This document shows, one piece after another, positions 26,734 through 64,000 of a DNA stretch of 64,000 nt (its first letter is position 1; every line of letters starts with the position of its first letter). The stretch lies in IMG/VR virus record IMGVR_UViG_3300037755_001058, positions 27,854 to 91,853 of that record; one strand, given 5' to 3'. The position numbers and the translations under genes were made by a program. The DNA is from a virus. The notes beneath the pieces were generated by a model, which saw nothing but the letters and a program-made list of their open reading frames with translations, did no database searches and was not told the DNA's origin.

Positions 26734-27063
26734 ATGGCCAGAACCATGAAGTGGCCCCCGGTTCCGATCAACGGTCGGATCGGAATGGTAGAGGGGGTCG
26801 ACGCGACCAACATCCTGCTGCTACAGACTCTCGGGGATCTGCGGGCCAACCCTTTCAACGACGACAACATCTCGCTCGGCAACATCACCTACAAGCCAGT
26901 GGGTGTAGCCAAGGGACGAATTCAAGGAGCGCTAGAACGACTCCGAAGGATCGTGTCGGTAGAGTCGGTGGTGGAATCGGGTGATGTCGAGGATCGTACG
27001 TACACCATTCGGTTCACTGATCGCGAGACCAGGGTACGGTCAGAGGTAACGATCGATGGCTGA
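26734..27063 (+). CDS. gp25/GPW-like baseplate wedge subunit
   Basis: Size, position before the J-like gene, and the IQGALER.RRIVSVESV...YTIRF pattern. Confidence 0.6.
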   Translation: MARTMKWPPVPINGRIGMVEGVDATNILLLQTLGDLRANPFNDDNISLGNITYKPVGVAKGRIQGALERLRRIVSVESVVESGDVEDRTYTIRFTDRETRVRSEVTIDG

Positions 27064-29254
27064 CAGGCCCAGCGACGTCAGGTGGCCACCGTCGAACGAC
27101 ATCTCGTTCGATTCCATCTTCGACCGCCTCATCGATCTCAAGGTGCAGCACTTTCCAGAGCACACCGTCCGTGACATTGCCGATCCGTACGTACAAATCA
27201 TGGCTTTGACTGCAGCTCTTGGGCAACACGCGTTCGGGCGAGCGAACCACGCCCTGAAGCAGCTCGCCCCGAAGACTGCCACATCACGCCGTGCACTCGT
27301 CTCGCTACTGGAGATCGTCAACCGACCGCTCGCACCGATACAACCCGCCCGAGGGAAGGTGTACGCTCGGCTGAAGGCAGCCTCCGTGGCTGACACGGTC
27401 ATGATCGAAGAGGGTCAACGCATCGCGCCGACCAACACCGTCGACCCTGTGTTCACGATTGATAGCGATGTGTCCATCGGTTCTGTGGCCGGGATCTCGA
27501 CATGGTCAGTTCTAGCAGGATCGGTCACCCTGGAGTCCGTGTACCCGGCTACGTTGTCCGCCATGGAGGTGGACGACTACATCATCTTTGGGTCTGACGG
27601 CTCATTCTTCGATGAACTGACGATCGACGTTGGAACTACCGCGCTTCCAGCGATCACAGCATCGTGGGAGTACTACAACGACGAGACCGGTGAGGTGACA
27701 TCTGCATCGATCGTGGGATCTAACCTCGAGTTCGACATCAGCGACTACCTGAACGGATCGGTCCCTGAGGGGTTGGAGGTGACTATCACCCACACCCCTA
27801 CGAACGTATCGGAGACCGTTGACACGGCCTCGGGTGTCGCGACCACATCGTTCCTCGGCCAATCATCTCCAAGCGAATCGGCAACGGACTACTCGGTCTT
27901 CGCCGAATGGAGACCCGTTCCTGGAGTCACCGATGGCACGGTTGGGATGACCCAGGACGGAGTGGTATCTTGGGACGTGACCGGAGTCAAGGATTCCGAT
28001 AACGACTGGGTGCCCCATGACACGTACGGGTTTGCAGTCAGGATGCGCATTGCTGACGACCCGTCCGTACTCCTGCCCTCGGACCTTGATCTCGACTCGG
28101 CTCCAGACAATCCCGATGGGGATTGGTTCGTCGAGGGGTACATCACCCAAGGTGTGCGAAGGACGATTTCGCTCGGACAGACGGATGGGTCTGCATTTCA
28201 AGCCCTTCCGATCAGTTCGGTGTTGATCGACGAGCCGGTGGCCGATCCAATGTGGGAAATCTCGATCGGTACAGAGACCGATTGGGCCGTGGTGGCAGAC
28301 TTCAGCAACTCCGGCCCTGCATCGAAGCACGCAGTCCTCAAGGAGGACCCTGACGACGGCTGGACGGTCGTACTCGGCAACGGTACGGTCGGCGTGCTGC
28401 CAACCTCGGGGCTCGGAGTGTCCGTCACGATCCGAACCGACTCACAGAGTCCAGGGGATCTCGATCCCAACGCCGGGATCAGAGCTCTCAGTGGTTTGGG
28501 TCTGGTGACAGGTTTCGTTCTGTTCCGCGGAACCACAGGATTTGCCGAGGCCGAGGCGTCTGATGCGAATGCCGTGATGGAATTTCGAAACAGCATCCTG
28601 CCTCAGCTTGCCCTCAGGGCAGAGAGTGCCATCACAGCACCAGAGATCGTCACAGCCCTCACTGGTGGAGCACCAAACAGAGCCACGTTCACTACCGCAG
28701 ATGGAAGGACGCCATTCAGTCGAGCCCTCTTCTCCCTGGAAGGCGCTGGTGATCGTCAGTACCGAGTGATGGTCGTGGGCGCTGAGTCTGACCCGTACGG
28801 TACGGTTGACTCGAACGATCTGGATGAGGCGGAGACCTGGTTGAACGGAACCCCCGTGGGGGTAGAGATCGTCGGCGGGCACGGGCCGAACAATACCGAG
28901 GCGATCGTTGGTTCATTCGTCTCCAGGCCCATGCGTCCAACCATCGTCCTCACGGTGAAATCGGCCCAGGGTGTACTGGCTCAAGCTGACCAAATTGTGC
29001 GGCAGTTCTTCAAGCCGCATAGCAAGGATGAAGATCTCGTCTACCGTTGGTCGTTCGGAGGGAAGGTGCCCGTGCCCATCCTATTCGGCCTCTTATGGGA
29101 AGGAGTTCCCAACAGGACATTTCTGACGCTCACCGTCAGTGATGGGGTCCTCGCCTACACGGCTGGCGACAGCATTCAGCTCGAGTCGTTCGAACTGCCC
29201 ACACTTGATCCGGCCTACAGCGCAGCGGCAGACATCTCCATCGTGGTGGGATGA
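27056..29254 (+). CDS. Baseplate wedge protein (gpJ/T4 gp6-like)
   Basis: DSIF..L...FPE.T..DIADP, LAPKTATSRRAL..L, VLGNGTVGVLP, GFAEAE. Confidence 0.75.
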   Translation: MADRPSDVRWPPSNDISFDSIFDRLIDLKVQHFPEHTVRDIADPYVQIMALTAALGQHAFGRANHALKQLAPKTATSRRALVSLLEIVNRPLAPIQPARGKVYARLKAASVADTVMIEEGQRIAPTNTVDPVFTIDSDVSIGSVAGISTWSVLAGSVTLESVYPATLSAMEVDDYIIFGSDGSFFDELTIDVGTTALPAITASWEYYNDETGEVTSASIVGSNLEFDISDYLNGSVPEGLEVTITHTPTNVSETVDTASGVATTSFLGQSSPSESATDYSVFAEWRPVPGVTDGTVGMTQDGVVSWDVTGVKDSDNDWVPHDTYGFAVRMRIADDPSVLLPSDLDLDSAPDNPDGDWFVEGYITQGVRRTISLGQTDGSAFQALPISSVLIDEPVADPMWEISIGTETDWAVVADFSNSGPASKHAVLKEDPDDGWTVVLGNGTVGVLPTSGLGVSVTIRTDSQSPGDLDPNAGIRALSGLGLVTGFVLFRGTTGFAEAEASDANAVMEFRNSILPQLALRAESAITAPEIVTALTGGAPNRATFTTADGRTPFSRALFSLEGAGDRQYRVMVVGAESDPYGTVDSNDLDEAETWLNGTPVGVEIVGGHGPNNTEAIVGSFVSRPMRPTIVLTVKSAQGVLAQADQIVRQFFKPHSKDEDLVYRWSFGGKVPVPILFGLLWEGVPNRTFLTLTVSDGVLAYTAGDSIQLESFELPTLDPAYSAAADISIVVG

Positions 29255-31215
29255 TGGGATCGTCATTCGGAGACTCTGACAAGTTTGGCCTGTCGACGCT
29301 AGCGCGGCGTTGGACTCCGTCGTCCATGGTTCAAGACCCCAGCGCTCAGCAGATGATGGACGCCATCGCTGACCAGCTGGCCGACGCACTGAATATTCTG
29401 CTGGAGCTCGAAAACTACATCCCGATCATCTGGTCTCCGACACGGTGTTTGAACGCGGATCTGATCAGGCTCCTGCAACTCAACGGCATCGACGGATCTT
29501 TGGGGACTGTAACGGTAGAAAAGGCCAGGAGGCTCGCTGCCATCACCACCACCGATCTGAGAGCATGGCGGGGTGCGTTTCGAGCGCATCGGGCCGTGGC
29601 TGGCGCCCTCACTGGTGGTCAGGTCATTATCCAATCCTGGCTTGTAGATAGGTTCGTGGTAGACGAGTCCACCATGAACTTCGTCCTCTTGGAGGATGAT
29701 CGAGAGAGCCTGTCGTTCGTGTACGTCATGGGTCAAGGTCCTTCCGGCACCGAGTACGATGCAGGCGAGCTTGCCACGCGCCTGGACGATCTTGCAAAGC
29801 CGGTTCTCGATGAGTTGGATTTCATATCGTGCTTTGCGCTGACGGCCTGGCGTGACGGTCTGGCCGGCTGGGGACTGGACGGTGCCAGCGTAATCCTCAC
29901 TGATGTTCCTGGCGAGTACGAGGCCGTGGAGATGGGCCCTGATGTGGCACTCGATGCCGTACAGGGAGTGCGGTCGGCGTCCGATAAGGATGATCTGGTA
30001 GGTGACGAGGTCATGCTCGTCACGGCTTGGTTCAAGACTGATGGGGCGGCCTCGGGAGACTACTGGGAGGTGATGGCATACGCCACAGAGGACGCCCACC
30101 TGGCGGCATCTCCCGGAGATGACGCATTCGTCGCCAGAGTGAACGTTGGAAACGGCATCGCGGATATCGGTCGCATGACTGACGGGGTGTACACATCGAT
30201 CGGAACGGATGCATTCTACATCCCAGATGGCACCGACGGACAATACCACCGTGTCGACTTCTTCATCGATCGTCGGTTGTTCAAATCTCGAGTGAAGCTG
30301 GCAGTCGATGGTAACGAAGGATACTGGCACGAGGAGGCGTTTTACGGGCCTGATGCGCCGTCCGGAGTCAAGGCCGCCGTGGTGTGTAGAACGTCGGCAT
30401 TCACCCAAGGCCGAATCCAGGTCGCTGCCATCGTGGCACGGATGCTGCGCACGTCCATCGCTGAGTGGGACCTATCTGGCCCGCTAAGCGTACCAGACCT
30501 CAGGTCTTGGTGGAACGCGCTGGATTCGGATAACCTGTCGCTAGACGGTGGGAACAACGTACTGTCCTTGACTGATGTTGGCCCGATGGGTGTTGACGTT
30601 GTTCCCATTGCCACCCCCTTGGCTACCACACTGCTAACGGTTGGTACTAGTGCGGCCAGACTTCCAGGACCGTTCCTCGGAGCCAACAACAACAGGCTGA
30701 GCGGATCTTGGACCGCCGTTGACACGACAGGTGGGTGGTCCGTGATGGCGATCATTCCGTTGACCGTAGAGTCTGTATACACACGCACATTCGCCACGCT
30801 TCGTGGTGGCAACAGCGTTCTCATACGCCGAGCTAGCGCGGCAGGGCAGCTCGAAGTACTCGTCGCTGCAGCAGCTGGTACAGCATTCGACGCTGGATTG
30901 GGGGCTGCCAACGGGGCCGGTGCATTCGCCGTGGTGTTCGTCCGGCGTGACATCACCGGCGGCGTCATCAAGGTGGACTGCTGGTACGATCAGAAGCTCG
31001 GAGGAGGACTGCAGAGCAACTCAACATCGTACGCCGACGCCGCAGGACCTACGTCTACCCTGTCCTCGGTGTACATTGGCGGTCGAAATTTGGTTGGTCT
31101 CGAATGGGAAACAGGCCACGCAGCATCTGTGGCGTGGTGGGATCGCTCACTGTCGGATGACGAAATCACGCAATTGGCACAATGGGCCGGCTCAGTGCTA
31201 GGGTACCCCATCTAA
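29251..31215 (+). CDS. Baseplate protein (gpI-like N-terminus) with a C-terminal LamG/ConA-like domain
   Basis: Follows gpJ; DLRSWWNALD...VYIGGR...WDRSLSDDEI LamG-type terminal motif. Confidence 0.6.
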   Translation: MMGSSFGDSDKFGLSTLARRWTPSSMVQDPSAQQMMDAIADQLADALNILLELENYIPIIWSPTRCLNADLIRLLQLNGIDGSLGTVTVEKARRLAAITTTDLRAWRGAFRAHRAVAGALTGGQVIIQSWLVDRFVVDESTMNFVLLEDDRESLSFVYVMGQGPSGTEYDAGELATRLDDLAKPVLDELDFISCFALTAWRDGLAGWGLDGASVILTDVPGEYEAVEMGPDVALDAVQGVRSASDKDDLVGDEVMLVTAWFKTDGAASGDYWEVMAYATEDAHLAASPGDDAFVARVNVGNGIADIGRMTDGVYTSIGTDAFYIPDGTDGQYHRVDFFIDRRLFKSRVKLAVDGNEGYWHEEAFYGPDAPSGVKAAVVCRTSAFTQGRIQVAAIVARMLRTSIAEWDLSGPLSVPDLRSWWNALDSDNLSLDGGNNVLSLTDVGPMGVDVVPIATPLATTLLTVGTSAARLPGPFLGANNNRLSGSWTAVDTTGGWSVMAIIPLTVESVYTRTFATLRGGNSVLIRRASAAGQLEVLVAAAAGTAFDAGLGAANGAGAFAVVFVRRDITGGVIKVDCWYDQKLGGGLQSNSTSYADAAGPTSTLSSVYIGGRNLVGLEWETGHAASVAWWDRSLSDDEITQLAQWAGSVLGYPI

Positions 31216-31225
31216 CGGAGCCTCG

Positions 31226-34200
31226 ATGAGCACCGGAGTCATTCACGCCGGATTCTTCCCGAACCAGATCATGGGTTCGACCAGACTCCGTGAAGACATG
31301 TTCGAGGCGGCCAGGCAGTACGCCAAGGACCTCGGCGGGCGAGTCATTGGGGAATGCGTCATCGACGCCACGCTCGCTGGCCTCGTCGTCACCGATGACG
31401 CGGCAGCCATCAACGAGCGCAAGCTGACCGTTGCTGGGGCATTGGCGGCTCTAGCAGAGTCCGGCGACATGTTCAACGACATGGGTGACACGTCAACCCT
31501 GCTCCAGCAGGTGGAGGGATCGCGCACCATCACTCTTCATGATCCAGACTGGTTCGTCGACATTCCGTACGAGAATGCGAACGGATCATCGTACTCGGTG
31601 TACCTGCACCTCACCGAGTACCCCATCGATGTGGGCGTCGGCAAGCCTGGCGGACGCGGATACTCCAGGTGGGTGGAGGTTCCGGGGATCACCATCAATC
31701 CCGACTCGGTGTCGGACGCGAGTGACCACTTAGAGTTGGTCGTCCTGACAGGCCTGACCGTTCTCGGGGTCCAGCCATGGCTGACCTCGAATGAAGAAGA
31801 TGCTGACTGGTCCATGGACTGCGTCGTCTACCTCGACACGGATGTTACCGGGGTGGAGATCGCCATCGATGATCCTGACGTGGCAATCGCCTTCACGGCG
31901 AAACTCACGAAACGGGTGGGAAACCCAGACTGGATCGTCGACCTCACAGGGATCGGAGACGGATACCTCGGACAGGAGACCCCCAGTACTACTGCGGCAG
32001 AGTACAAGATCGTCGTGTTGGGTCCGGTCGTCACGACTACCGACTTCGACTCTGACCCAGACTACGTTCACATCGCGCAGGTCGACTCGGCTACCGGATC
32101 TGAGACCATCAGCCATTCCGGTCAGGTGATCGTCGATTCCCTTGCCAGCGGAATCATCAGCATGCCAGACGGGCTGCTCGATGGTGGCTGTCTGACAGTT
32201 CCAGGTGTCACGAACGGTACTACCACGGCTGACATCGACGGAACTGGAGTGATCCATACCCGAGGCCAGCTCTGGCAACCCGGGGCCGAGAGCGTCGGTG
32301 GCATTCCAACGTCCGATGAGTTCTTCGTCTCGTTCGATCCCGACACTATGTCGTACGACCTGTACACCACCATGGCGGATGCTCTACTCGACGATCGAGT
32401 GCCAGTGGCGTACGGAATCACCGATGGGACTCCAAACATCACGTTCCTGATCGGAATCGGGAAGAGTGTTAGGCACGTCTCGCGCGTGGTCGAGCTGACT
32501 CTGAGCTCAGATGCCGAGGCGCGCACAGCTTTCACGAACCTGAAGGAGGCTCTGGGCTACTGCGCGGCTCTGAGTAACCTCGCTGATGTACGAGGGTTCC
32601 GCATCAACGTTCAGGGCACCGTTAACGTTGGAACGGATGTGGTGAACGAAACGGAACTGCTGTCCGTTCCCGGAGTGCACTTCGTCGGTGCACGGATGCT
32701 CAACTCTAGCGCCGCTGCTGGAGTGTCCAGTGGATTCGAGTGGACTGGGGTGTCGAACTCCCTATTCTCGATTCCATCAGGTACCACCCTGGAGTCATGG
32801 ACCTTCGAGAACATCAGGTTCAGCTACGTCACAACGGTGGCTACTGACATGACCGTGGCGGCATTCAGCAACGCTCACATCACTAGCAACCTGACGTTCA
32901 TCGGGTGCCTGTTCGACGCCCCCAGCACCCAGATCTTCACGGCGTACTACAGTACCGGCAACAGCGTCAACCTGAAGTTCGTCGACTGTATCAATGCCAA
33001 TAACGGTGTGTGGATCTACAACACAGGTTCCAACTCACTCGGTCCTCTCACGATGCGGAACTGTCGTCAAGACGGTTCCGCATCGGCAAGCGTCGGTCCA
33101 GCGTACGGAGTAGTGTGGGATGCCTCAACTTCCCCAGGAGCTTCCTGGAGGATTCAGGACTGCGACTTCACGAATCTGGATGGTCCAGCGCTCTACTCAG
33201 CGTCTGGTCTGGTCAACGGTTGGATCAAGGACAACCGGATTCACTTCCAATCTGGAGCTCAGTCCGGAGCCGGGATCGATCTGGGGAATGGTACGGCTAC
33301 GGCGGACTGTGAGAATCTCTTCATCCACGACAATCACGTAGACCTGACGGCGTACTCTTCCGCTACAGATGGGATCAGAGTGTACTCCGATCGTGGAGTT
33401 CCGCCAAACATGTGTGGAATCTTCATCCATGACAACTACGTGGAGATGGCGTCCTATCCATCGGGCAGCGTGGGAATCGAGGTAGGCGGGAACGCCAACG
33501 ATGGGGTAATCGTCCATTCCAACGTCGTTGGTGGATCGGAATTCGGTATCTTCATGACGGGTACCGGTACCCAAAACGTGGTTTCCAGCAACTGTGTGTT
33601 CAGCGAGCAACAGGCGTTGAACATCGGTGCCGATCAGTACGCACTCGTTGCTAGCAGCAATTCGCTGCTGATCGGGACTGGATCAGTTCCGTGTGTCCTG
33701 TGGAGTGGTGACCACGGAGTGCTGACGGGTAACTACGTTGATGGCTCTGGAGGAGCGGGGGCTATCGGTCTCATCACCGGTTCCTCCGCGACCAACCTCG
33801 TGGTCACCGGTAACTTCATCGAGGGGTTGGACTATTCCATCGACATTGATGCGTCCACGGTGGTGGTGTCCGGTAACAGGTTGTCGGGCGATCTGAGAAG
33901 CCAGGACAACACCCATCTCATCATCGGCAACGTGATGACTGGCGACCTCGACAACGTCACCTCCACCCAGGTGACTGTGATCGGGAACCATTGGACCGGT
34001 AACATGGACCTCAACTCCGGTACTGGTTGTATTGTCGGTGCTAACAGGGTAACCGGGTACGTCAACGAGATCGGCAATGGCTCGATGCTGGTCTGCAACA
34101 GGGTTGATGGTGCCACCGGAACTGCAACGTCCGTCGGGATGGTGGTCACCGGAAATCTGTTCGAGGACACCACCGCGCCTACCACCACGTTCGATGAGAT

Positions 34201-34471
34201 TGGGGACCTCGTGATTACTGGGAACATCTTCCGTCACGACCCGAACATCGATACAAACACGAACAATGACATCGTCATGACCGGCAACGCATTTCTCGAT
34301 TCGTCTGCATGGACCATCGAGGCCGTCGATGGCGCTGTTACTGGAAACTACGTGGAAGGGGCCTTGACTCTTGGAGCGGGAAGCGCCAACCTCGCCGTGG
34401 TAGGCAACAGGTTCAACGCCGGGGCTCCCACCGATAGCGGCTCTGGCAACGCTGTGGCCAGCAATACCTGA
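31226..34471 (+). CDS. Tail fibre/tailspike with a right-handed beta-helix (putative depolymerase)
   Basis: Many [VI]xGN/IHDN repeats over the C-terminal half; located after the baseplate genes. Confidence 0.75.
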   Translation: MSTGVIHAGFFPNQIMGSTRLREDMFEAARQYAKDLGGRVIGECVIDATLAGLVVTDDAAAINERKLTVAGALAALAESGDMFNDMGDTSTLLQQVEGSRTITLHDPDWFVDIPYENANGSSYSVYLHLTEYPIDVGVGKPGGRGYSRWVEVPGITINPDSVSDASDHLELVVLTGLTVLGVQPWLTSNEEDADWSMDCVVYLDTDVTGVEIAIDDPDVAIAFTAKLTKRVGNPDWIVDLTGIGDGYLGQETPSTTAAEYKIVVLGPVVTTTDFDSDPDYVHIAQVDSATGSETISHSGQVIVDSLASGIISMPDGLLDGGCLTVPGVTNGTTTADIDGTGVIHTRGQLWQPGAESVGGIPTSDEFFVSFDPDTMSYDLYTTMADALLDDRVPVAYGITDGTPNITFLIGIGKSVRHVSRVVELTLSSDAEARTAFTNLKEALGYCAALSNLADVRGFRINVQGTVNVGTDVVNETELLSVPGVHFVGARMLNSSAAAGVSSGFEWTGVSNSLFSIPSGTTLESWTFENIRFSYVTTVATDMTVAAFSNAHITSNLTFIGCLFDAPSTQIFTAYYSTGNSVNLKFVDCINANNGVWIYNTGSNSLGPLTMRNCRQDGSASASVGPAYGVVWDASTSPGASWRIQDCDFTNLDGPALYSASGLVNGWIKDNRIHFQSGAQSGAGIDLGNGTATADCENLFIHDNHVDLTAYSSATDGIRVYSDRGVPPNMCGIFIHDNYVEMASYPSGSVGIEVGGNANDGVIVHSNVVGGSEFGIFMTGTGTQNVVSSNCVFSEQQALNIGADQYALVASSNSLLIGTGSVPCVLWSGDHGVLTGNYVDGSGGAGAIGLITGSSATNLVVTGNFIEGLDYSIDIDASTVVVSGNRLSGDLRSQDNTHLIIGNVMTGDLDNVTSTQVTVIGNHWTGNMDLNSGTGCIVGANRVTGYVNEIGNGSMLVCNRVDGATGTATSVGMVVTGNLFEDTTAPTTTFDEIGDLVITGNIFRHDPNIDTNTNNDIVMTGNAFLDSSAWTIEAVDGAVTGNYVEGALTLGAGSANLAVVGNRFNAGAPTDSGSGNAVASNT

Positions 34472-53128: not shown

Positions 53129-55873
53129 TCACCCCTCGGAGACGAGCTGCGTCGGCGACAGCACGATGGTCAGGTTCTCGAGCGCGGGTCGCGGCCGGAA
53201 CTGGATCGTTGCCGTCACGTTGCCCTCGAGCAGCTCCTCAGGCGGGTTCTGGTCCGGAGGGACGAGAACCGTAACCTGCTGCTCGAAGCCCGGACCGGCA
53301 TGGTCACTGAACCAGCCGTCTCGGTAGTAGACCTTGAGCTTCTCCCGGAGGGAGGCTTGGATGTCGCCCAGTCGCCTGGCCGAGATGCTCTTGAAGATCC
53401 ACGGCCTGGTGGTCACGAACAGGTCTCTGGCGACGTGGTAGAACACGTCGCGTTCCGTGATCGTGTACCGCTTGCCCTTGGGGGTCCGCCCGAGGCTGTA
53501 CCGCCTATTCCCCCACAGGTAGACCGCCGCACCCTCCCAGAGCAGCATGACGATGCCATTGTCGTTCAGCAGCTTCTTGGGAGGGGTCCAGCGACCGATA
53601 TCGTCGCTGAGGCCGAGCACGCGCGGGCTCAAGCGGCCCTGTTCGTTGTTGTTGGCCGCGGCGATGTGGAACCCGCGCTCTCCATCGACCCCCTCATTCG
53701 CCAGGCGCGACTTGATGCCCAGGAACATCCCGGCCACGGACCGGGTGACGGCCTTGGTTCGGGCCACGTTGAGGAACTTGGCCCTCGACGGGAACAGATG
53801 GTCGACATAGTCCGACTCGACCTCAGACCCGGCCATGTCGGCAACCGCTGCCTGTCCAGGAAGGGCCTGGGCCTCGAGGCCGGCGGCGAACTCGGCGACG
53901 TATACCCACCCGTTCTTGCGGACGAACGGTTCGATCGCGGCCTTCACGGAGGTGGCCGTGATTCCAGGGGTGATGATCCGAACCAGGCCAAGGTTCGTGC
54001 AGAGCCAACGCTGGAAGATAGCATCTTCCAGGTCCGATGCGATGATGTACCTGGCAGCCGCGGGGGCAACCCCATCGTACCCACCCCACATCGGCCATCG
54101 ACCCTCGACCCGGAACGGAACGGCATCGGTACCGTACACCACCCCAGAGGTGGCGATGCCGAGTCCGGCGTGGCCAGTACCGCTCCCGAGGGTGAGGCTG
54201 GACTTCGATCCGTACGACCCCTGGAGACCGATGGTCATGGTACCGTCGGTGTTGGCCGTGAACGTGAACATGTCCGTGGTGTCGAGGGTGGTCAACTCGG
54301 CGGCGATGGCCGTCGCCCCGGGACCAGAACCGGCCGAAACGAGCGTGATGGCGGCCCCTCCATCCGGGGAGAGAATGACGGTCTCACCCACTCCGAGAGA
54401 GACTGCGTCCAGATCCACAGTGTCTACCGTGGCGGACACACCGACAGCAGACCCATAGCTGCTGAGGAGCAGGTCGGATCTGACGGAGATGGTGTTGTAG
54501 GTGCTGGCCGCCACTCGGAGGCGCTGGTTGGTGTCTCCATCATCGGACCGGGCCACGGGGTAGAGGTACGCCTCGCGGTTGGACAGGTCCAGGGGCAGAG
54601 GATCGATGCGGATGCGCGCCGTATCACTGAGAACGGCAGCGTCGTCCCCAGCGATGATGTTGAACGACGCCAGTTGCGGATGTACCGGCACGAACGGAGT
54701 GGCCACGGTGCCAGCACCTAGATCGAGCACGGTTCCATCGGCGAAGGTGACGGACACGGTGAACGTGGTCGCGGCCGTGAACGTGATGTTGTAGACGTGA
54801 GGCTCGATCTGGGACGCATCCACCGGGGCGACGTCGACGATGTACGGATCGCCGGTGTTGGTGGCACCGAGGCTCTGCCTCCACCACTGCATGGTGATGG
54901 TGGCCCCATCCACTGATGTTGGCACCTCGCAGAGGTTCGCGGGAAGCTTGGCCTCGACCGTGGCTCCAGCGTAGGTGGTCTCGATCTCGATCTGGTACCG
55001 AGTCTGCTCGCCGTCGGGAATGACCCGCAACCAGGGGCGGTCATCGTCATCGCTGAGGCCGAGATCACCGTACGACGTGACCGACTCCCACTCGGTGTCG
55101 GCCTTGAACTTCCGGACCCCCTCGACGCTGAACAGGGTGGCGGTGACGCTGTCCTGCCCGATCACGACTGCCAGCTCCTGGCCACCCGAGAGCAGAAGGT
55201 TCCAGGACCCGTCGATGACACCCATACCATCGGCGTCCTGGACGGCCTGGGAGAACTCCCCCTTGATGGTGGCGACTCCGGTATCGTCGTTCGACACGAC
55301 CTCGTACGGACCCCCGGAGTCGCCTTCGAAGGAAATCTGCGCCCCGACGAGCTCGTCGGTGTAGAACGTCACGCCGGCCAGCTCCAGCGACGTTGACAGG
55401 TCCACGGTGCTCGCGGTGAGATCGGCGGCGATGTCGTCGAGAAGGCCGAGCAGCACCCTACGCCGACCACCCCACTTTCCGCCGTTGTTCGCCAGAGCCG
55501 TCGCCAACGGGGCCCTGTCCGTGGCAACGAGTCCAGGCTGGCTCTTGCTGAACGAGCGATCCGGGTTCCGATCCCACAAGGGGACGGTGGACTGCCGATC
55601 GTTCCCATCGGTGACCCTCCCGATGAGGACCGGAGGGGAATCCTCTGAGTAGATGTCGTCGAGGGACAGACTTCCCTCGAAGACATCGTCTGGCTCACCG
55701 GACACCAGCCGCGCCTCGGCCTTCCCGAGGACCATCGCGGCATGCGTCACAGGACCCGAAGCGAACTGACCCATGACCGCCGACGAACCGCGAGGAGCGG
55801 TGGGCAACCCCTGGGCCCCATCGCGAACGATGACCGTGGTTCCGGGACCGTCGGGAACGAGTACGAGAGACAT
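53129..55873 (-). CDS. Contractile tail sheath protein
   Basis: PGTTV, GQFASGP, G.WG, LWGNR.., RPWIFK, PRPALENLTI. Confidence 0.88.
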   Translation of the reverse strand: MSLVLVPDGPGTTVIVRDGAQGLPTAPRGSSAVMGQFASGPVTHAAMVLGKAEARLVSGEPDDVFEGSLSLDDIYSEDSPPVLIGRVTDGNDRQSTVPLWDRNPDRSFSKSQPGLVATDRAPLATALANNGGKWGGRRRVLLGLLDDIAADLTASTVDLSTSLELAGVTFYTDELVGAQISFEGDSGGPYEVVSNDDTGVATIKGEFSQAVQDADGMGVIDGSWNLLLSGGQELAVVIGQDSVTATLFSVEGVRKFKADTEWESVTSYGDLGLSDDDDRPWLRVIPDGEQTRYQIEIETTYAGATVEAKLPANLCEVPTSVDGATITMQWWRQSLGATNTGDPYIVDVAPVDASQIEPHVYNITFTAATTFTVSVTFADGTVLDLGAGTVATPFVPVHPQLASFNIIAGDDAAVLSDTARIRIDPLPLDLSNREAYLYPVARSDDGDTNQRLRVAASTYNTISVRSDLLLSSYGSAVGVSATVDTVDLDAVSLGVGETVILSPDGGAAITLVSAGSGPGATAIAAELTTLDTTDMFTFTANTDGTMTIGLQGSYGSKSSLTLGSGTGHAGLGIATSGVVYGTDAVPFRVEGRWPMWGGYDGVAPAAARYIIASDLEDAIFQRWLCTNLGLVRIITPGITATSVKAAIEPFVRKNGWVYVAEFAAGLEAQALPGQAAVADMAGSEVESDYVDHLFPSRAKFLNVARTKAVTRSVAGMFLGIKSRLANEGVDGERGFHIAAANNNEQGRLSPRVLGLSDDIGRWTPPKKLLNDNGIVMLLWEGAAVYLWGNRRYSLGRTPKGKRYTITERDVFYHVARDLFVTTRPWIFKSISARRLGDIQASLREKLKVYYRDGWFSDHAGPGFEQQVTVLVPPDQNPPEELLEGNVTATIQFRPRPALENLTIVLSPTQLVSEG

Positions 55874-59679: not shown

Positions 59680-60330
59680 TCACCCCACCCTGAACGCGCG
59701 TCCCGCCAGGTCAAGCGAGAAGGAAACCACCCACGTCAAGGCTACCGCCGCCGAGAAGATGGGATCATCACCGGTGTCGACCGTAGTCATCACCAGCCTC
59801 AACGATCCAAGAGGCTGCCCGGCAGAGAAGTACGTGTCCACCGGTAGAAGCAGCTCACCACAGTACACACCCGTAGGAGTGACCTGCTCGACCGTGTCTC
59901 CATCTTCGATGTCGAAGTTCCCAGTACCGGCGTGGATCGTGATCGTGGTTCCATCCGGAACGGTCAGGACCTCGTAGACGTGAGATGCTCCCTTGTCCTT
60001 CGCTCTCAGGTAGTCCCCAGAGCTGAAGGGACTCGAGTCGTCCACCGTGAGTGTGTGGATGTTCTCACCACCACCCCCACTACCGGCCCCATACACTGGG
60101 AAAGCAGTGAGAGCAGCCTCCTCACCACCCACCGGGTACGCCACCTCTGACATCTTCGGAGCCACCCAGCTCTCTGCCACCTCGAGATCGGTGACGGTGG
60201 AGCCAACCGTGAGCATCGCCTCCTGGAGGAGGAAGGCCTCTGGCTTCCCACTCTCCGCCGGAGAGGTCTCCATCAGCAGGGAGAGGCGGTGCGTTGTACC
60301 CGCCTGGACGGGTTCTGCCCTGACGGTCAT
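59680..60330 (-). CDS. Virion structural protein
   Basis: In the head operon; TLTVDDSSPFSSGD beta-barrel motif; GAGG SD before ATG 60330. Confidence 0.55.
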   Translation of the reverse strand: MTVRAEPVQAGTTHRLSLLMETSPAESGKPEAFLLQEAMLTVGSTVTDLEVAESWVAPKMSEVAYPVGGEEAALTAFPVYGAGSGGGGENIHTLTVDDSSPFSSGDYLRAKDKGASHVYEVLTVPDGTTITIHAGTGNFDIEDGDTVEQVTPTGVYCGELLLPVDTYFSAGQPLGSLRLVMTTVDTGDDPIFSAAVALTWVVSFSLDLAGRAFRVG

Positions 60331-60366
60331 CGAAACCTCAGGCCCCACTGGGCGTCACTCGAAGGA

Positions 60367-61317
60367 TCAGTAGGGGCGGTACTCCTTGAGGAAGACGCGC
60401 AGGATGCCCGCGCCGGCCGTGAACGCCGTGGGGGCAGCCTCGACCTCGATGTCGAGGTTGTCGCCGGGGGCGAACTGCGACCCGGTCGGCGAGGCGCCGG
60501 TCGGGGCCGAGCCGAGGGCCGTGGCGGCCAGGAGGATCTGCAGGTCGCTGGTCGTGTCCGCCGTGCCGCTGATGCCGGTGCGGAGCGTGATGTCCCCGCC
60601 AGCGCCGGCCCCATCCTCGCCGGGGATGTACTCGTAGTACGAGACCTCACCACCCCAGGGGAACTCGGGGAGCTTCGCCCCATCGACGGCCAGGGCCCCT
60701 GCACCGAGGCCGTAGAAGTCAGTCAGGTCGACGTGGAAGTCCATGTGGCCACCCGGGTAGGCGACGAGCGTGGACGGATCGGTGGTGTCGGCCATCTCGC
60801 CGGTCTTCTTGGCCGTGTCGGTGTAGTACGGCCTGCCAATCGACTTGGTCGCCACGTCGATGACGGTGTCCGCCGACCTGTGGAACCGGATGGACCCGAC
60901 GATCGCGAACGTCGAGTTCTTCTCGTCGAGTCCGAGGTACGTCGCGATCTCGGCGAAGGTGGGCTCGACGGCAGACGCCACGGCAGCCACGGTGCCGGGG
61001 ACCCACAGCTTCGAGAAGGCACCGGCGTTCTTGTGCCGCATCAGAACCAGAGCGAACCAGACCGCCTGCCCTGTGGTGAGGTAGTTCGCCTCGTCGACGA
61101 GGGTGACCTCTTCGGCCGGGAGCTCCTTGACGTAGCCGAAGACCCTGGCTACGCCTCCCGTGCTGCGTGCCACGAGGACGGTGTCACCGGCTCCCGTGAC
61201 CTGCGAGCTGAGGGTGTCGATCGATGGCGTGACATCGATGCCCACGAGCTCGATCGGCTTGAGTGGCACGACCTCTCCGCCGGCAACGTGTGCGGCGTTC
61301 TGAACGTCGAAGCTCAT
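60367..61317 (-). CDS. Capsid decoration/cement-like protein
   Basis: Downstream of the MCP; very high GC3 bias like the MCP; beta-rich. Confidence 0.5.
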   Translation of the reverse strand: MSFDVQNAAHVAGGEVVPLKPIELVGIDVTPSIDTLSSQVTGAGDTVLVARSTGGVARVFGYVKELPAEEVTLVDEANYLTTGQAVWFALVLMRHKNAGAFSKLWVPGTVAAVASAVEPTFAEIATYLGLDEKNSTFAIVGSIRFHRSADTVIDVATKSIGRPYYTDTAKKTGEMADTTDPSTLVAYPGGHMDFHVDLTDFYGLGAGALAVDGAKLPEFPWGGEVSYYEYIPGEDGAGAGGDITLRTGISGTADTTSDLQILLAATALGSAPTGASPTGSQFAPGDNLDIEVEAAPTAFTAGAGILRVFLKEYRPY

Positions 61318-61643: not shown

Positions 61644-63065
61644 TCACGGAAGGACGTCGAACCTCGGGCTGATGATGTCGTCCACGAGGGCCATGCCATC
61701 GTAGTCGGCCACCATGAAGTCGAGATCCATGTGAACGATGATCTCGATGACCTCGTCGTTCGGGTAGAACACCGTGTAGATGCGCACCCCGTTCCGGATG
61801 ACGGTCAGAAGGTACCGCCAGATCCCGAGGAACAGCGGCTGCAGGTCAGCCCACCTGACCGCGTAGCTGCTGGCGGTCGTCGACACGATGGTCTGTCCGA
61901 GCGTCGAGGTGGTCGTCACCGTGTTGTTCGGGGTCGAGAAGTCGACGGCGAGGGTCTCCTCGACTCCCGTGTCGACGCACACGATGGTCACGTAGCGCTG
62001 CCCATCGTCGCCAGTGGCGGAGCGATCGACCCCAGAGGTCGCCAGGGTATTGATCGTGATCGTGATCGTACCATCGCCGTTGTCCACGACCGAGTCGGGG
62101 TCGAGACCGTCGTAGCCCTCGCCGGAGCTGAACCCGTCGTCCGGAAACTGCGGGACGACCACACCGGTGCGTCCCAACGGGTTGGCCTGGGCGCCGACCG
62201 CGTTCAGGAGGCCCATGCCGAGCTCGTTCACGATGCTGGGGTGGGAGTTGCTCGGGTTCGCCCCCAGGGCCGAGAGCTCGGTGAGCCACCGGCTGACCAG
62301 GGTGTCCGTCAGCCCCCACGCGAGCGCCGAATCCTTCCGGTACGGCTTCTCGATCTGGTGGAGCATGCCCGCCCAGATGCCGTTGTGGTAGCTGAACCCG
62401 TCGGCCTGGCTGACATAGTTCGAGCTGTTGGCGCGGATCTTCGTGAACCACCCGTCGGCCGTCGATCGCTGGATGTTCAGGTCCGAGTCGGTCGGAAGGG
62501 ACATGTCGCCGTTGACGCCGAGGTCGGCCAGAACGTTCCCGATGCCCACGGCGACGCCGGTCTGGATCAAGTTGTTGACGTTCTGACCCGCCCGAGCCGC
62601 CGCTCGGATGGCATCCAACCTGATGCCGAATGCACCGGACATCGTCTTGGTCTCGAACGTCTTGTGGTCGGTCGTGGGCTTGTGCAGCGGGATGTTCTTC
62701 CGTGGCCCGTCGGTCGCGACGGGGGCCATCCGGAAGTTCCGGTCATCCCACATGTCGAGGTACCCCGTCCGCTCGTCCACGCCCCGAAACGAGGTGAACC
62801 GAAGCCAGTCCGACTCCTGACGGACCCTGGAGAACAGGCCGATCTGGGCGATCCGGTTGAGGGACGAGCCCGCGGGCTCGTCCTCCACGCTGAAGTAGCC
62901 AGACCCGCCGCTCTTGGTGCTGACGGAGAGACCACCCCCGGCGACCACGCGACCACCGCTGCTCGCCGGTGAGGCGTTGCGCTCGGTGACAACCGGGACC
63001 TTCTGTCCGCCGGCGAAGAGGCCCTGCACGGCCCTCAGGGACTCCTGAACGATGACGTCGGCCAT
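61644..63065 (-). CDS. Major capsid protein (HK97 fold, P2-family-like) with an inserted beta domain
   Basis: LADLGVNGD...DGWFTKI, IEKPYR, IIVHMDLDF; follows the scaffold; strongest codon bias. Confidence 0.8.
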   Translation of the reverse strand: MADVIVQESLRAVQGLFAGGQKVPVVTERNASPASSGGRVVAGGGLSVSTKSGGSGYFSVEDEPAGSSLNRIAQIGLFSRVRQESDWLRFTSFRGVDERTGYLDMWDDRNFRMAPVATDGPRKNIPLHKPTTDHKTFETKTMSGAFGIRLDAIRAAARAGQNVNNLIQTGVAVGIGNVLADLGVNGDMSLPTDSDLNIQRSTADGWFTKIRANSSNYVSQADGFSYHNGIWAGMLHQIEKPYRKDSALAWGLTDTLVSRWLTELSALGANPSNSHPSIVNELGMGLLNAVGAQANPLGRTGVVVPQFPDDGFSSGEGYDGLDPDSVVDNGDGTITITINTLATSGVDRSATGDDGQRYVTIVCVDTGVEETLAVDFSTPNNTVTTTSTLGQTIVSTTASSYAVRWADLQPLFLGIWRYLLTVIRNGVRIYTVFYPNDEVIEIIVHMDLDFMVADYDGMALVDDIISPRFDVLP

Positions 63066-63101: not shown

Positions 63102-64000
63102 TCAGCCGCCGAGGTTGCCGAGCACCCTGCTGGGCACTTCGACCTGGTACGGATCTTCGTCGTTGGCCGAGAATGATCCCAGCCCGTAGGGGAGCGAGTC
63201 GTCGCCACCACCGTCGCCACCCCCATCACCGGAGGCAGGAGCGTCACCACCGTTTTCGTACGCCCGGAGGCACGCCACGATGGCCTCGGAGACCGATGGG
63301 GCGACCAGCGACCGAACGGTCTGGGCGAGCTCGCCATCGGGCGAGCTCTTCAGCTCGGAGGTGATGAACTTCGAGAGCGCCGAGCGCATCGAAGCCGCGA
63401 CCTGAAGGTTCTCCGGGGCGGCCGAGTCGATGTTGATGCCGCCGACCGCGCCGGCGATCAGGCTGGCAAGTGCCGACCCATCGGCGCCGCCGAGGAGGGA
63501 GAGCACGGTGGCGGTGTCCCACTGGGTCACACCGTTGTCGCCCCACGAGAACTTCTTCGCCTGCTCGGGCGCCTTCTCACGGGCCTGGTCGAGGGCGGAC
63601 TTCACGACGTTCATGAACCCGACGGGATCCTCGTTGGCGATCCGCTGCAGGTCCGAGAGGTTGAGGTTCATCGACTTCTCCGTGTCATCCGTGTTCTCGA
63701 GGGCACCGAGCTCTCTGAGCAGCCTCAGGGCCTCGTCGAGCTTGGACTGATCTTGCTTGCTGTGCCGGGCACCAGCCAGGAGGGACTGGACGAGCCGGAC
63801 GGCCTCAGCCTTGGTGGCCTCGGTTGGCGCAACACCCACGACTCCAGACGGCATGGACCATGCCCATGAGGCGAATGCTGCCGACAGCTCGGCGAACTGG
63901 GCGAGAACGGCTTCGGAGGTGGACGGAAACTCTCCGCTGTCTCGCATGATGCTGAGGACGGCGTCCTCCATCATGGGCAGCGCGATGGAAACGCCCTGGA
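63102..64000 (-). CDS. Scaffold/protease C-terminal part (start probably beyond the window)
   Basis: Helical, acidic protein immediately upstream of the MCP. Confidence 0.55.
   Translation of the reverse strand, partial: QGVSIALPMMEDAVLSIMRDSGEFPSTSEAVLAQFAELSAAFASWAWSMPSGVVGVAPTEATKAEAVRLVQSLLAGARHSKQDQSKLDEALRLLRELGALENTDDTEKSMNLNLSDLQRIANEDPVGFMNVVKSALDQAREKAPEQAKKFSWGDNGVTQWDTATVLSLLGGADGSALASLIAGAVGGINIDSAAPENLQVAASMRSALSKFITSELKSSPDGELAQTVRSLVAPSVSEAIVACLRAYENGGDAPASGDGGGDGGGDDSLPYGLGSFSANDEDPYQVEVPSRVLGNLGG

What the first reader, a model, noticed from the sequence alone, without database searches (positions are those of the whole stretch)
61851..62105. One beta-module appears in the major capsid, baseplate wedge and tail fibre proteins
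Seen: the MCP insert (61851-62105, - strand) reads LDPDSVVDNGDG...YVTIVCVDTGVEETL...TLGQTIVSTTASSYAVRW. The baseplate J-like protein (about 27689-27910) has EVTITHTPTNVSETV...FLGQSSPSESATDYSVFAEW. The tail fibre (about 31694-32017) has INPDSVSDASD...DVTGVEIAI...YLGQETPSTTAAEYKIVV. The shared signature is LGQxx[PV]S[TE][TS]AxxYx[VI]. Inference: a small domain has been inserted into three unrelated virion proteins, including the HK97 fold. It may be an adhesion module or a docking site displayed across the whole virion.
Basis: seen in the sequence. Interest (0 to 1): 0.7.

Follow-up and report, generated by a model that had tools for sequence, protein, structure and literature searches.

The report
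Shared beta-barrel in capsid, baseplate, fibre
One small, previously unnamed beta-barrel domain really is present in the capsid protein, a baseplate wedge protein and the tail fibre of this uncultured phage lineage, an old three-way sharing that resembles the known spread of Ig-like domains on phage particles.

Summary

The similarity is homology, not chance. hhalign scores for the module pairs are 69, 48 and 34. Column shuffles give 11 +/- 2.5 with a maximum of 19, and other parts of the same proteins give 9-29.

A profile search of 1.84 billion proteins finds 362 cluster representatives. Nearly all of the best 150 belong to the same three host families:
- P2-family HK97 capsid proteins;
- baseplate-J (gp6-like) wedge proteins;
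- the conserved N-terminal part of tail fibres with swappable tips.

Module copies group by host protein (3 label changes on 188 tips). The host proteins are full-length homologues at 25-28% identity. So these are old resident paralogues, not a recent shuffle.

Wedge plus fibre is the wider pattern. The capsid copy occurs in a subset, and sister phages carry an unrelated insert at the same capsid site.

AlphaFold predicts a six-stranded beta-barrel (pLDDT 79). No Pfam family matches and no structural match is clear (best Z 6.3).

The function was not tested. I favour a structural contact domain (I-domain-like in the capsid, a fibre-wedge joint in the tail) over host adhesion. This is a new variant of a known kind, of moderate interest.

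The parts
61644..63065 (-). Major capsid protein (473 aa), HK97 fold, P2-family-like
   Evidence: The AF2 model matches P2/P4 gpN and phiRSA1 capsids at Foldseek E 2.4e-11. phrog_1623 'virion structural protein' matches at 4e-10. Distant full-length homologues P0152 and P0164 pass the Pfam PF05125 cutoff.
61830..62132 (-). Capsid copy of the module (residues 312-412).
   Evidence: It lies between the capsid-profile matches, which end at residue 310. AF2 predicts a six-stranded barrel when it is modelled alone (pLDDT 78.8). hhalign to the wedge module scores 69.3. It is the most conserved part of the protein (0.72 against 0.60 pairwise identity).
61857..61901 (-). LGQ...S.TA..Y.V loop motif, capsid copy (residues 389-403)
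   Evidence: L389, G390, S395, A398 and Y401 are invariant in 36 homologues. pLDDT exceeds 90 in the module model.
27056..29254 (+). Baseplate-J / gp6-like wedge protein (732 aa)
   Evidence: The family profile hits PDB 9gtp 'Baseplate protein J-like' at E 4e-4. Full-length homologue P0087 (28% identity over 735 aa) hits annotated baseplate J / gp6 wedge genes of cultured phages. No Pfam hit of its own.
27671..27931 (+). Wedge copy of the module (residues 206-292); LGQ motif at 27854-27898
   Evidence: The A4 profile matches 206-292 at E 1e-24. hhalign to the capsid module gives probability 97.8. G268, Q269, S273, D278 and Y279 are invariant in 21 homologues.
31226..34471 (+). Tail fibre / spike (1081 aa) with a conserved N-terminal part and a beta-helix C-terminal part
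   Evidence: Homologues carry PF05048. Distant relatives keep the N-terminal part but carry Kelch or endosialidase tips.
31673..32041 (+). Fibre copy of the module (residues 150-272), with two clade-specific insertions; LGQ motif at 31967-32011
   Evidence: Alignment A4. hhalign scores 33.7 to the capsid module and 48.2 to the wedge module. A capsid-only profile hits distant fibre modules at 4e-17.
26734..27063 (+). Small gene just upstream of the wedge gene (109 aa), possibly gp25/W-like. Context only.
   Evidence: Position and size only. No PHROG hit.
29251..31215 (+). 654-aa gene between the wedge and fibre genes, possibly the second wedge protein (gp7 / P2 gpI position). Context only.
   Evidence: Gene order only. 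No PHROG hit. It carries no module.

Best explanation
Shown:
- A domain of about 90 residues is a true homologous family. Its signature is PDSV..G..L at the start, TG..E in the middle and LGQ...STTA.DY.V at the end.
- Its paralogous copies have long been resident in three virion proteins of an uncultured myovirus lineage: the P2-type HK97 capsid protein, the baseplate-J wedge protein and the virion-proximal part of the tail fibre.
- Wedge plus fibre is the widespread pair. The capsid copy fills a capsid insertion site that sister phages fill with something else.

Predicted: a six-stranded closed beta-barrel, with the LGQ motif forming an ordered loop.

Inferred mechanism (about 45% likely): it is a protein-protein contact domain of the particle, not a host-specific adhesin.
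- In the tail, the wedge and fibre barrels lie side by side at the baseplate rim and help form the fibre joint.
- In the capsid, the barrel acts like the P22 I-domain. It is a built-in accessory domain on the outer face of each subunit that aids folding or braces capsomers. Its capsid-specific conserved loop (DRS.TG.DGQRY) may serve this.
For: Homology:
- hhalign results.
- Negative controls.
- Cross-hits of single-family profiles: the capsid-only profile hits fibre P0093 at 4e-17 and wedge P0207 at 4.6e-13.

Old residence:
- Distant host proteins are full-length homologues at 25-28% identity.
- Modules cluster by host type, with 3 Fitch changes on 188 labelled tips.

Restriction to three families:
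- The 22 odd-sized hits are fragments or length variants of the same three, apart from two short proteins (P0083, P0154) similar only in the module.

Co-occurrence in other records:
- Three copies in G001 and G002.
- In G004-G010, a wedge copy plus one or two further copies in fibre-sized or unclassified frames. Two of these records are complete.

Capsid site is a hotspot: G004-G008 capsids carry an unrelated insert of about 80 aa there.

Fold: AF2 gives pLDDT 78.8 and six strands. The nearest structures are six-stranded barrels, Z 5.7-6.3.

For a structural role:
- The module is the best conserved part of the capsid protein.
- It stays fixed in fibres whose receptor-binding tips are swapped for Kelch, endosialidase or beta-helix domains.
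- Fibres dock on wedge proteins in known myophages (PMC9942802, read).
- P22 and CUS-3 I-domains are six-stranded barrels inserted in the HK97 fold (PMC11243222 abstract; PMC7602432).
Against: - No contact was observed or modelled. No multimer prediction was possible, and model coordinates could not be inspected.
- Whether the barrel faces outward in the capsid is inferred only from its insertion position.
- The conserved Ser/Thr/Asp/Tyr loop could equally be a sugar-binding site.
- In the wedge protein the module lies in a generally variable region.
- Structural matches are all below Z 8, so even the fold class is tentative.
- The P22 I-domain did not appear among the listed matches.
Confidence: 0.45

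Rival explanations
1. Adhesion module. The barrel is a weak carbohydrate- or surface-binding domain displayed on head, baseplate and fibre. It would keep the particle near host cells, as proposed for Ig-like domains such as T4 Hoc.
For: - Ig-like domains show the same distribution across tail fibres, baseplate wedge proteins and capsid insertion domains (PMC7602432).
- Weak FN3-like rows appear in Foldseek (E 0.12).
- Weak tail-fibre rows appear in BFVD.
- The conserved loop is rich in Ser, Thr, Asp and Tyr.
Against: - The module is more conserved than the capsid core.
- It stays constant while fibre tips change host-binding domains.
- In fibres it sits at the virion-proximal end, about residues 125-230.
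- No Pfam Ig, FN3 or CBM match.
Confidence: 0.3
2. Common docking site. The three copies bind one shared partner or one another. Examples would be head fibres, or stowed tail fibres attached to the capsid barrel, as phi29 head fibres attach to the BIG2 insertion domain.
For: - The same loop motif is kept in all three paralogue classes over deep divergence.
- There is phi29 precedent (PMC7602432).
- Several unannotated, probably abundant virion genes lie next to the capsid gene.
Against: - No candidate partner was identified.
- Phages with only wedge and fibre copies are common, so any capsid-linked partner is not general.
- The variable motif positions show no concerted evolution within a genome.
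Confidence: 0.12
3. Recent module shuffling or gene conversion within this genome.
For: Three copies lie in one genome. Modular exchange is common in phage tail genes.
Against: - Copies are only 26-37% identical to each other but 50-70% identical to their orthologues.
- Copies cluster by host protein across lineages.
- Host proteins with the module at the same position are full-length homologues at 25-28% identity.
Confidence: 0.03
4. Chance or compositional resemblance of beta-rich, Thr/Ser/Gly-rich segments.
For: Pairwise BLASTP is marginal. All three are beta-strand regions.
Against: - hhalign scores are 9 to 23 sd above column shuffles.
- The module is the only hit in full-length profile comparisons.
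- Other regions of the same proteins score at background.
- Single-family profiles retrieve the other families at E down to 4e-17.
Confidence: 0.02

Closest known systems
Promiscuous Ig-like domains (BIG2, FN3, I-set) on tailed-phage virion proteins (the survey cited as ref. 89 in PMC7602432)
   Same: A small beta domain is added to tail fibres, baseplate wedge proteins and capsid proteins (as coat insertion domains). This is the same three classes of host protein.
   Different: - No sequence match to any Ig or FN3 Pfam family.
- The predicted fold is a six-stranded closed barrel rather than a clear Ig sandwich.
- The module is confined to three fixed host families, with stable old residence, rather than scattered and sporadic.
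- It is highly conserved rather than fast-evolving.
P22 / CUS-3 coat protein I-domain
   Same: A six-stranded beta-barrel genetically inserted in the HK97 fold (PMC11243222 abstract). Here a predicted six-stranded barrel is inserted after the A-domain helices and before the C-terminal long strands. I-domains stabilise capsids (PMC7602432).
   Different: - No detectable sequence relation: the profile search of PDB sequences finds no P22 chain.
- P22 I-domains did not appear in the listed structural matches.
- To my knowledge I-domains have no paralogues in tail proteins.
T4 gp10-gp11-gp12 shared structural module (Leiman et al. 2006, from my own knowledge; not read here)
   Same: Baseplate and fibre proteins of one phage share a homologous module, pointing to duplication within the tail gene set.
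   Different: That module is a trimeric fibre-type fold shared only among tail proteins. Here it is a monomeric barrel that also sits in the capsid protein.
N-terminal beta-barrel 'crown' domain of F1/V1-ATPase subunits; FNR FAD-binding barrel; RND-adaptor barrel
   Same: These are the best structural neighbours of the model: Z 6.3, rmsd 3.4 A over 79 residues for 7vai_F, and Z 5.7 for 5nik_D. The ESM Atlas gives TM about 0.55.
   Different: Z below 8 is within the range of common arrangements. Identity is 2-13%. No functional link is implied.

Membership tests
HK97-fold major capsid protein, P2 family (PF05125) | HK97 fold with closest similarity to P2 gpN-type capsids | tested here: met
   Foldseek gives 7jw1 (P4/P2 procapsid) at E 2.4e-11 and 7oz4 at 1.6e-10. 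The model has mean pLDDT 65.
HK97-fold major capsid protein, P2 family (PF05125) | Pfam profile match above the gathering score | tested here: inconclusive
   P0001 itself has no PF05125 hit. Its full-length homologues P0152 (27.4 bits) and P0164 (29.2 bits) pass the cutoff of 27.
Baseplate J / T4 gp6-like wedge protein | Sequence relation to known baseplate J proteins | tested here: inconclusive
   No Pfam or PHROG hit for P0002. The family profile hits PDB 9gtp 'Baseplate protein J-like' at E 4e-4. Homologue P0087 hits annotated baseplate J / gp6 genes at E 6e-6 over the C-terminal core only.
Ig-like phage accessory domains (Big_2, fn3, I-set) | Match to an Ig-like Pfam profile | tested here: not met
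   Pfam scans of the three proteins at E up to 1 and of 20 distant module-bearing proteins at E up to 0.01-0.1 give no Big_2, fn3 or I-set hit over the module.
Ig-like phage accessory domains (Big_2, fn3, I-set) | Ig-type beta-sandwich fold | tested here: inconclusive
   FN3 domains appear only weakly (Foldseek E 0.12, TM 0.30-0.36; VIA Z 4.2). Six-stranded barrels score higher (Z 5.7-6.3).
P22-type I-domain | Accessory domain genetically inserted within the HK97 fold | tested here: met
   - Capsid-profile matches stop at residue 310, and at 282 in P0152, leaving about 60 C-terminal residues after the module.
- AF2 strand order supports the same reading.
- Sister capsids have an unrelated segment at the same place.
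P22-type I-domain | Six-stranded beta-barrel | tested here: inconclusive
   Predicted only: six strands, pLDDT 78.8. The nearest solved folds are six-stranded barrels, but at Z below 8.
P22-type I-domain | Homology to the P22 / CUS-3 I-domain | tested here: inconclusive
   No P22 chain in the profile search of PDB sequences at E up to 10. None is listed in the structural searches, which does not exclude it.
Collagen-flanked surface repeat (PF19079) | Pfam match above the gathering score | tested here: not met
   17.6 bits against a cutoff of 27, E 0.0046, on capsid residues 317-356 only. It is absent from the 20 other module-bearing proteins scanned.

The most novel reading that the evidence does not exclude
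The three barrels form one recognition system within the particle. They bind each other or one shared partner through the invariant LGQ...STTA.DY loop. The capsid surface would then present the same socket as the baseplate rim, for example to hold head fibres or to stow tail fibres against the head. That would be a capsid-to-tail coupling not described for HK97-fold phages.
Probability: 0.12. Interest if true: 0.7.

Novelty: new variant of a known kind. Interest (0 to 1): 0.45.

Why it matters
It defines a new, unnamed virion domain family: at least 362 cluster representatives, no Pfam model and no clear solved fold.

Its distribution is unusually disciplined. It occurs in the same three structural proteins, and it is old and conserved.

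It adds a second example, besides the P22-type I-domain, of a small barrel inserted in the HK97 fold. It shows that this capsid site can be filled by a domain shared with the tail machinery.

The family gives a handle for annotating capsid, wedge and fibre genes in a large uncultured myovirus group that current profile libraries barely recognise. It also poses a clear structural question for cryo-EM.

Tried and rejected
- **Pairwise BLASTP of the three proteins.** Only marginal, so family profiles were needed.
- **A fourth copy in the genome.** None, using a 3-sequence HMM and the A4 profile on called genes and six frames.
- **A second, tandem module in the wedge protein,** suggested by a second LGQ at residue 373. 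Rejected: hhalign is at background, and the only hit is the overlap of the two slices.
- **Cultured relatives.** None carry the module.
  - The capsid protein has no tblastn match in 50,697 phage records.
  - The distant capsid P0152 hits only an XkdG-type gene, and outside the module.
  - Wedge hits cover only the C-terminal core.
  - TerL is at most 27% identical to any cultured phage.
- **Fold identification.** No result was clear.
  - Foldseek against PDB and BFVD gave nothing at E <= 1e-3.
  - VIA-align gave best Z 5.7 (wide search) and 6.3 (second look).
  - The ESM Atlas gave TM about 0.55 to assorted barrels.
  - The PDB sequence profile search gave only eRF3 at E 1.2.
- **P0073** (2093 aa, 19 weak stretches). 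A low-complexity false positive.
- **The alternative capsid insert of sister phages.** It has no paralogue elsewhere in those genomes and no Pfam family.
- **Host assignment.** One distant capsid homologue lies in an Ignavibacteriales MAG. This says nothing firm about this phage's host.
- **Tools.** Two papers on the P22 I-domain were not held.

Full report
**Setting.** The window is bases 27854-91853 of a 91.8-kb IMG/VR virus record with 61% G+C. It is a myovirus. A 914-aa tail sheath, a tape measure and the capsid gene lie on the minus strand. A baseplate-fibre-terminase block lies on the plus strand. No cultured phage is close: the capsid protein has no tblastn match in 50,697 phage records, and the large terminase is at most 27% identical to any.

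**The observation.** The three quoted strings are present at the stated places:
- capsid protein P0001 (61644-63065, minus), residues 321-405;
- wedge protein P0002 (27056-29254, plus), residues about 212-285;
- fibre P0003 (31226-34471, plus), residues about 157-264.

Pairwise BLASTP is only marginal, with E of 0.009, 0.12 and 2.3. The case therefore rests on family profiles.

**Homology.** I collected 36 capsid, 21 wedge and 14 fibre homologues (alignments A1-A3). Each family conserves the same motif positions:
- L389, G390, S395, A398 and Y401 are invariant in the capsid family;
- G268, Q269, S273, D278 and Y279 in the wedge family;
- L248, G249, Q250 and Y260 in the fibre family.

The full-length profile comparison of capsid against wedge returns the module as its only hit (probability 96.4%, E 1.4e-9, 77 columns). 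Capsid against fibre is colinear over the whole module but weaker (E 1.1e-3). Wedge against fibre aligns the first strand (E 9.8e-5).

On module-only slices the scores are 69.3, 33.7 and 48.2. Forty column shuffles give mean 11, sd 2.5 and maximum 19, and reversed profiles give 10-15. Other parts of the same proteins score 9-29 against the module profiles.

Profiles built from one family alone retrieve the other families. With E-values scaled to 1e6 sequences:
- the capsid-only profile hits distant fibre P0093 at 4e-17 and wedge P0207 at 4.6e-13;
- the wedge-only profile hits 45 of 49 capsid-type proteins.

The fibre module of this particular clade carries two insertions. This explains its weaker direct scores. 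Chance and composition are excluded.

**Distribution.** I made an 11-sequence module alignment from the window and IMG/VR loci (A4). Searched against 1.84 billion cluster representatives, it gave 362 proteins at E <= 1e-3.

The best 150, together with the earlier family sets, fall into three contexts:
- proteins of about 420-480 aa with the module near residues 265-390;
- proteins of about 720-750 aa with it near 210-310;
- proteins of 460-2661 aa with it near 125-230.

These are full-length homologues of the window's capsid, wedge and fibre N-region at 25-30% identity.
- The capsid-type ones reach the Pfam P2 capsid cutoff.
- The wedge-type ones hit annotated baseplate J / gp6 genes of cultured phages, but only in their C-terminal core.
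- The fibre-type ones carry varied tips: Kelch propeller, endosialidase and, in this clade, a beta-helix.

Twenty of the 22 odd-sized hits are fragments or length variants of the same three families. Two short proteins (P0083 and P0154) are similar only in the module.

On a tree of 210 modules the copies group by host protein, with 3 label changes on 188 labelled tips (midpoint root, classes assigned by length and position). So the copies are old paralogues that have stayed put.

**Co-occurrence.** I searched ten other IMG/VR records.
- Two have three copies: frames of 435/729/586 aa and of 453/791/487 aa.
- One has only the capsid copy (427-aa frame; G003).
- Seven have a copy in a wedge-sized frame (715-852 aa) plus one or two further copies in fibre-sized or unclassified frames. 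These include two complete genomes with terminal repeats.

In five of those seven, the capsid homologue (402-415 aa) carries a different segment of about 80 aa at the same position. That segment has no similarity to the module (hhalign about 10), no paralogue in its own genome and no Pfam family. Wedge plus fibre is thus the general pair. The capsid site is an insertion hotspot that this lineage fills with the tail-type barrel.

**Structure.**
- The full capsid model (pLDDT 65) is an HK97 fold. It is closest to P2/P4 gpN and phiRSA1.
- The module follows the A-domain helices and precedes the long C-terminal strands. This is topologically like the P22 I-domain site; I infer that from the order of secondary structure, not from superposition.
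- Modelled alone with 44 sequences, the module reaches pLDDT 78.8 and pTM 0.71. It has six strands, and the LGQ region is an ordered loop with pLDDT above 90.
- No clear structural relative was found. Foldseek found nothing at E <= 1e-3 in PDB or BFVD. VIA-align gave best Z 5.7 and 6.3, to six-stranded barrels of RND adaptors, FNR-type reductases and V-ATPase crowns. The ESM Atlas gave TM about 0.55 to similar barrels and a phage nozzle domain.
- Pfam has no model for it. The only hit is a sub-threshold CFSR match.

**Function (inferred).**
- In the capsid family the module is the most conserved segment (pairwise identity 0.72 against 0.60).
- The capsid copy carries a conserved, capsid-specific loop that the full-capsid model places at low confidence (residues 341-356).
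- In fibres the module belongs to the constant, virion-proximal part, while the receptor-binding tips are exchanged.
- Fibres dock on wedge proteins in known myophages (Pam3).
- I-domains brace HK97 capsids.

These points favour a structural contact role (about 45%) over weak host adhesion of the Ig-like kind (about 30%) or a shared docking socket (about 12%). None of these was tested here.

**Comparison and verdict.** Ig-like domains are already known to occur in tail fibres, baseplate wedge proteins and capsid insertion domains (PMC7602432). The pattern is therefore a known kind. What is new is the domain family itself, its probable barrel fold, its strict three-protein distribution and its high conservation. 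I rate it a new variant of a known kind, of moderate interest.

**Earlier scan notes.** The scan's earlier notes on this genome concern other features. One, on the scattered structural gene blocks, agrees with my gene map. The module sequence had not been noted elsewhere in the scan.

Noticed in passing
L051, L055, L057, L058, L059 (capsid genes of records G004-G008): Sister-lineage P2-like capsid proteins carry a different conserved insert of about 80 aa at the same site (motif DY.LD...GTIAR ... GDTVKVTY). It has no Pfam family and no paralogue in its own genome.
   Followed up: yes
window 53129-55873 (-): The tail sheath is 914 aa and matches a 496-position sheath profile end to end. It must therefore hold large insertions.
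   Followed up: no
window 60367-61317 (-) and 59680-60348 (-): Genes of 316 aa and 222 aa lie just downstream of the capsid gene and have no PHROG match. The first has third-position G+C of 0.90, like the capsid gene, so it may be an abundant virion (decoration?) protein.
   Followed up: partly
window 61830-62132 (-), capsid residues 341-356: A capsid-specific loop inside the module (DRS.TG.DGQRY) is nearly invariant in 36 homologues, yet the full-capsid model predicts it with low confidence. It is absent from the wedge copies and shorter in distant capsid copies.
   Followed up: partly
window 31226-34471 (+) and relatives P0086, P0093, P0143: Fibres of this wide family keep the N-terminal part (about 90-300) but exchange the distal part: beta-helix here, Kelch propeller or endosialidase elsewhere. 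Record G010 has two 1334/1335-aa proteins that both carry the module.
   Followed up: partly
window 61644-63065 (-), capsid residues 18-73: The N-terminal 70 residues or so of the capsid protein are variable, Gly/Ser-rich and predicted disordered. A separate 290-aa gene (63102-63974) sits in the scaffold position.
   Followed up: no
L060 (CAZTBP010000001.1, Ignavibacteriales MAG): A distant module-bearing capsid homologue (26% identity) lies in a 336-kb contig of a bacterial MAG. It is a possible prophage and a hint to the hosts of the wider lineage.
   Followed up: no
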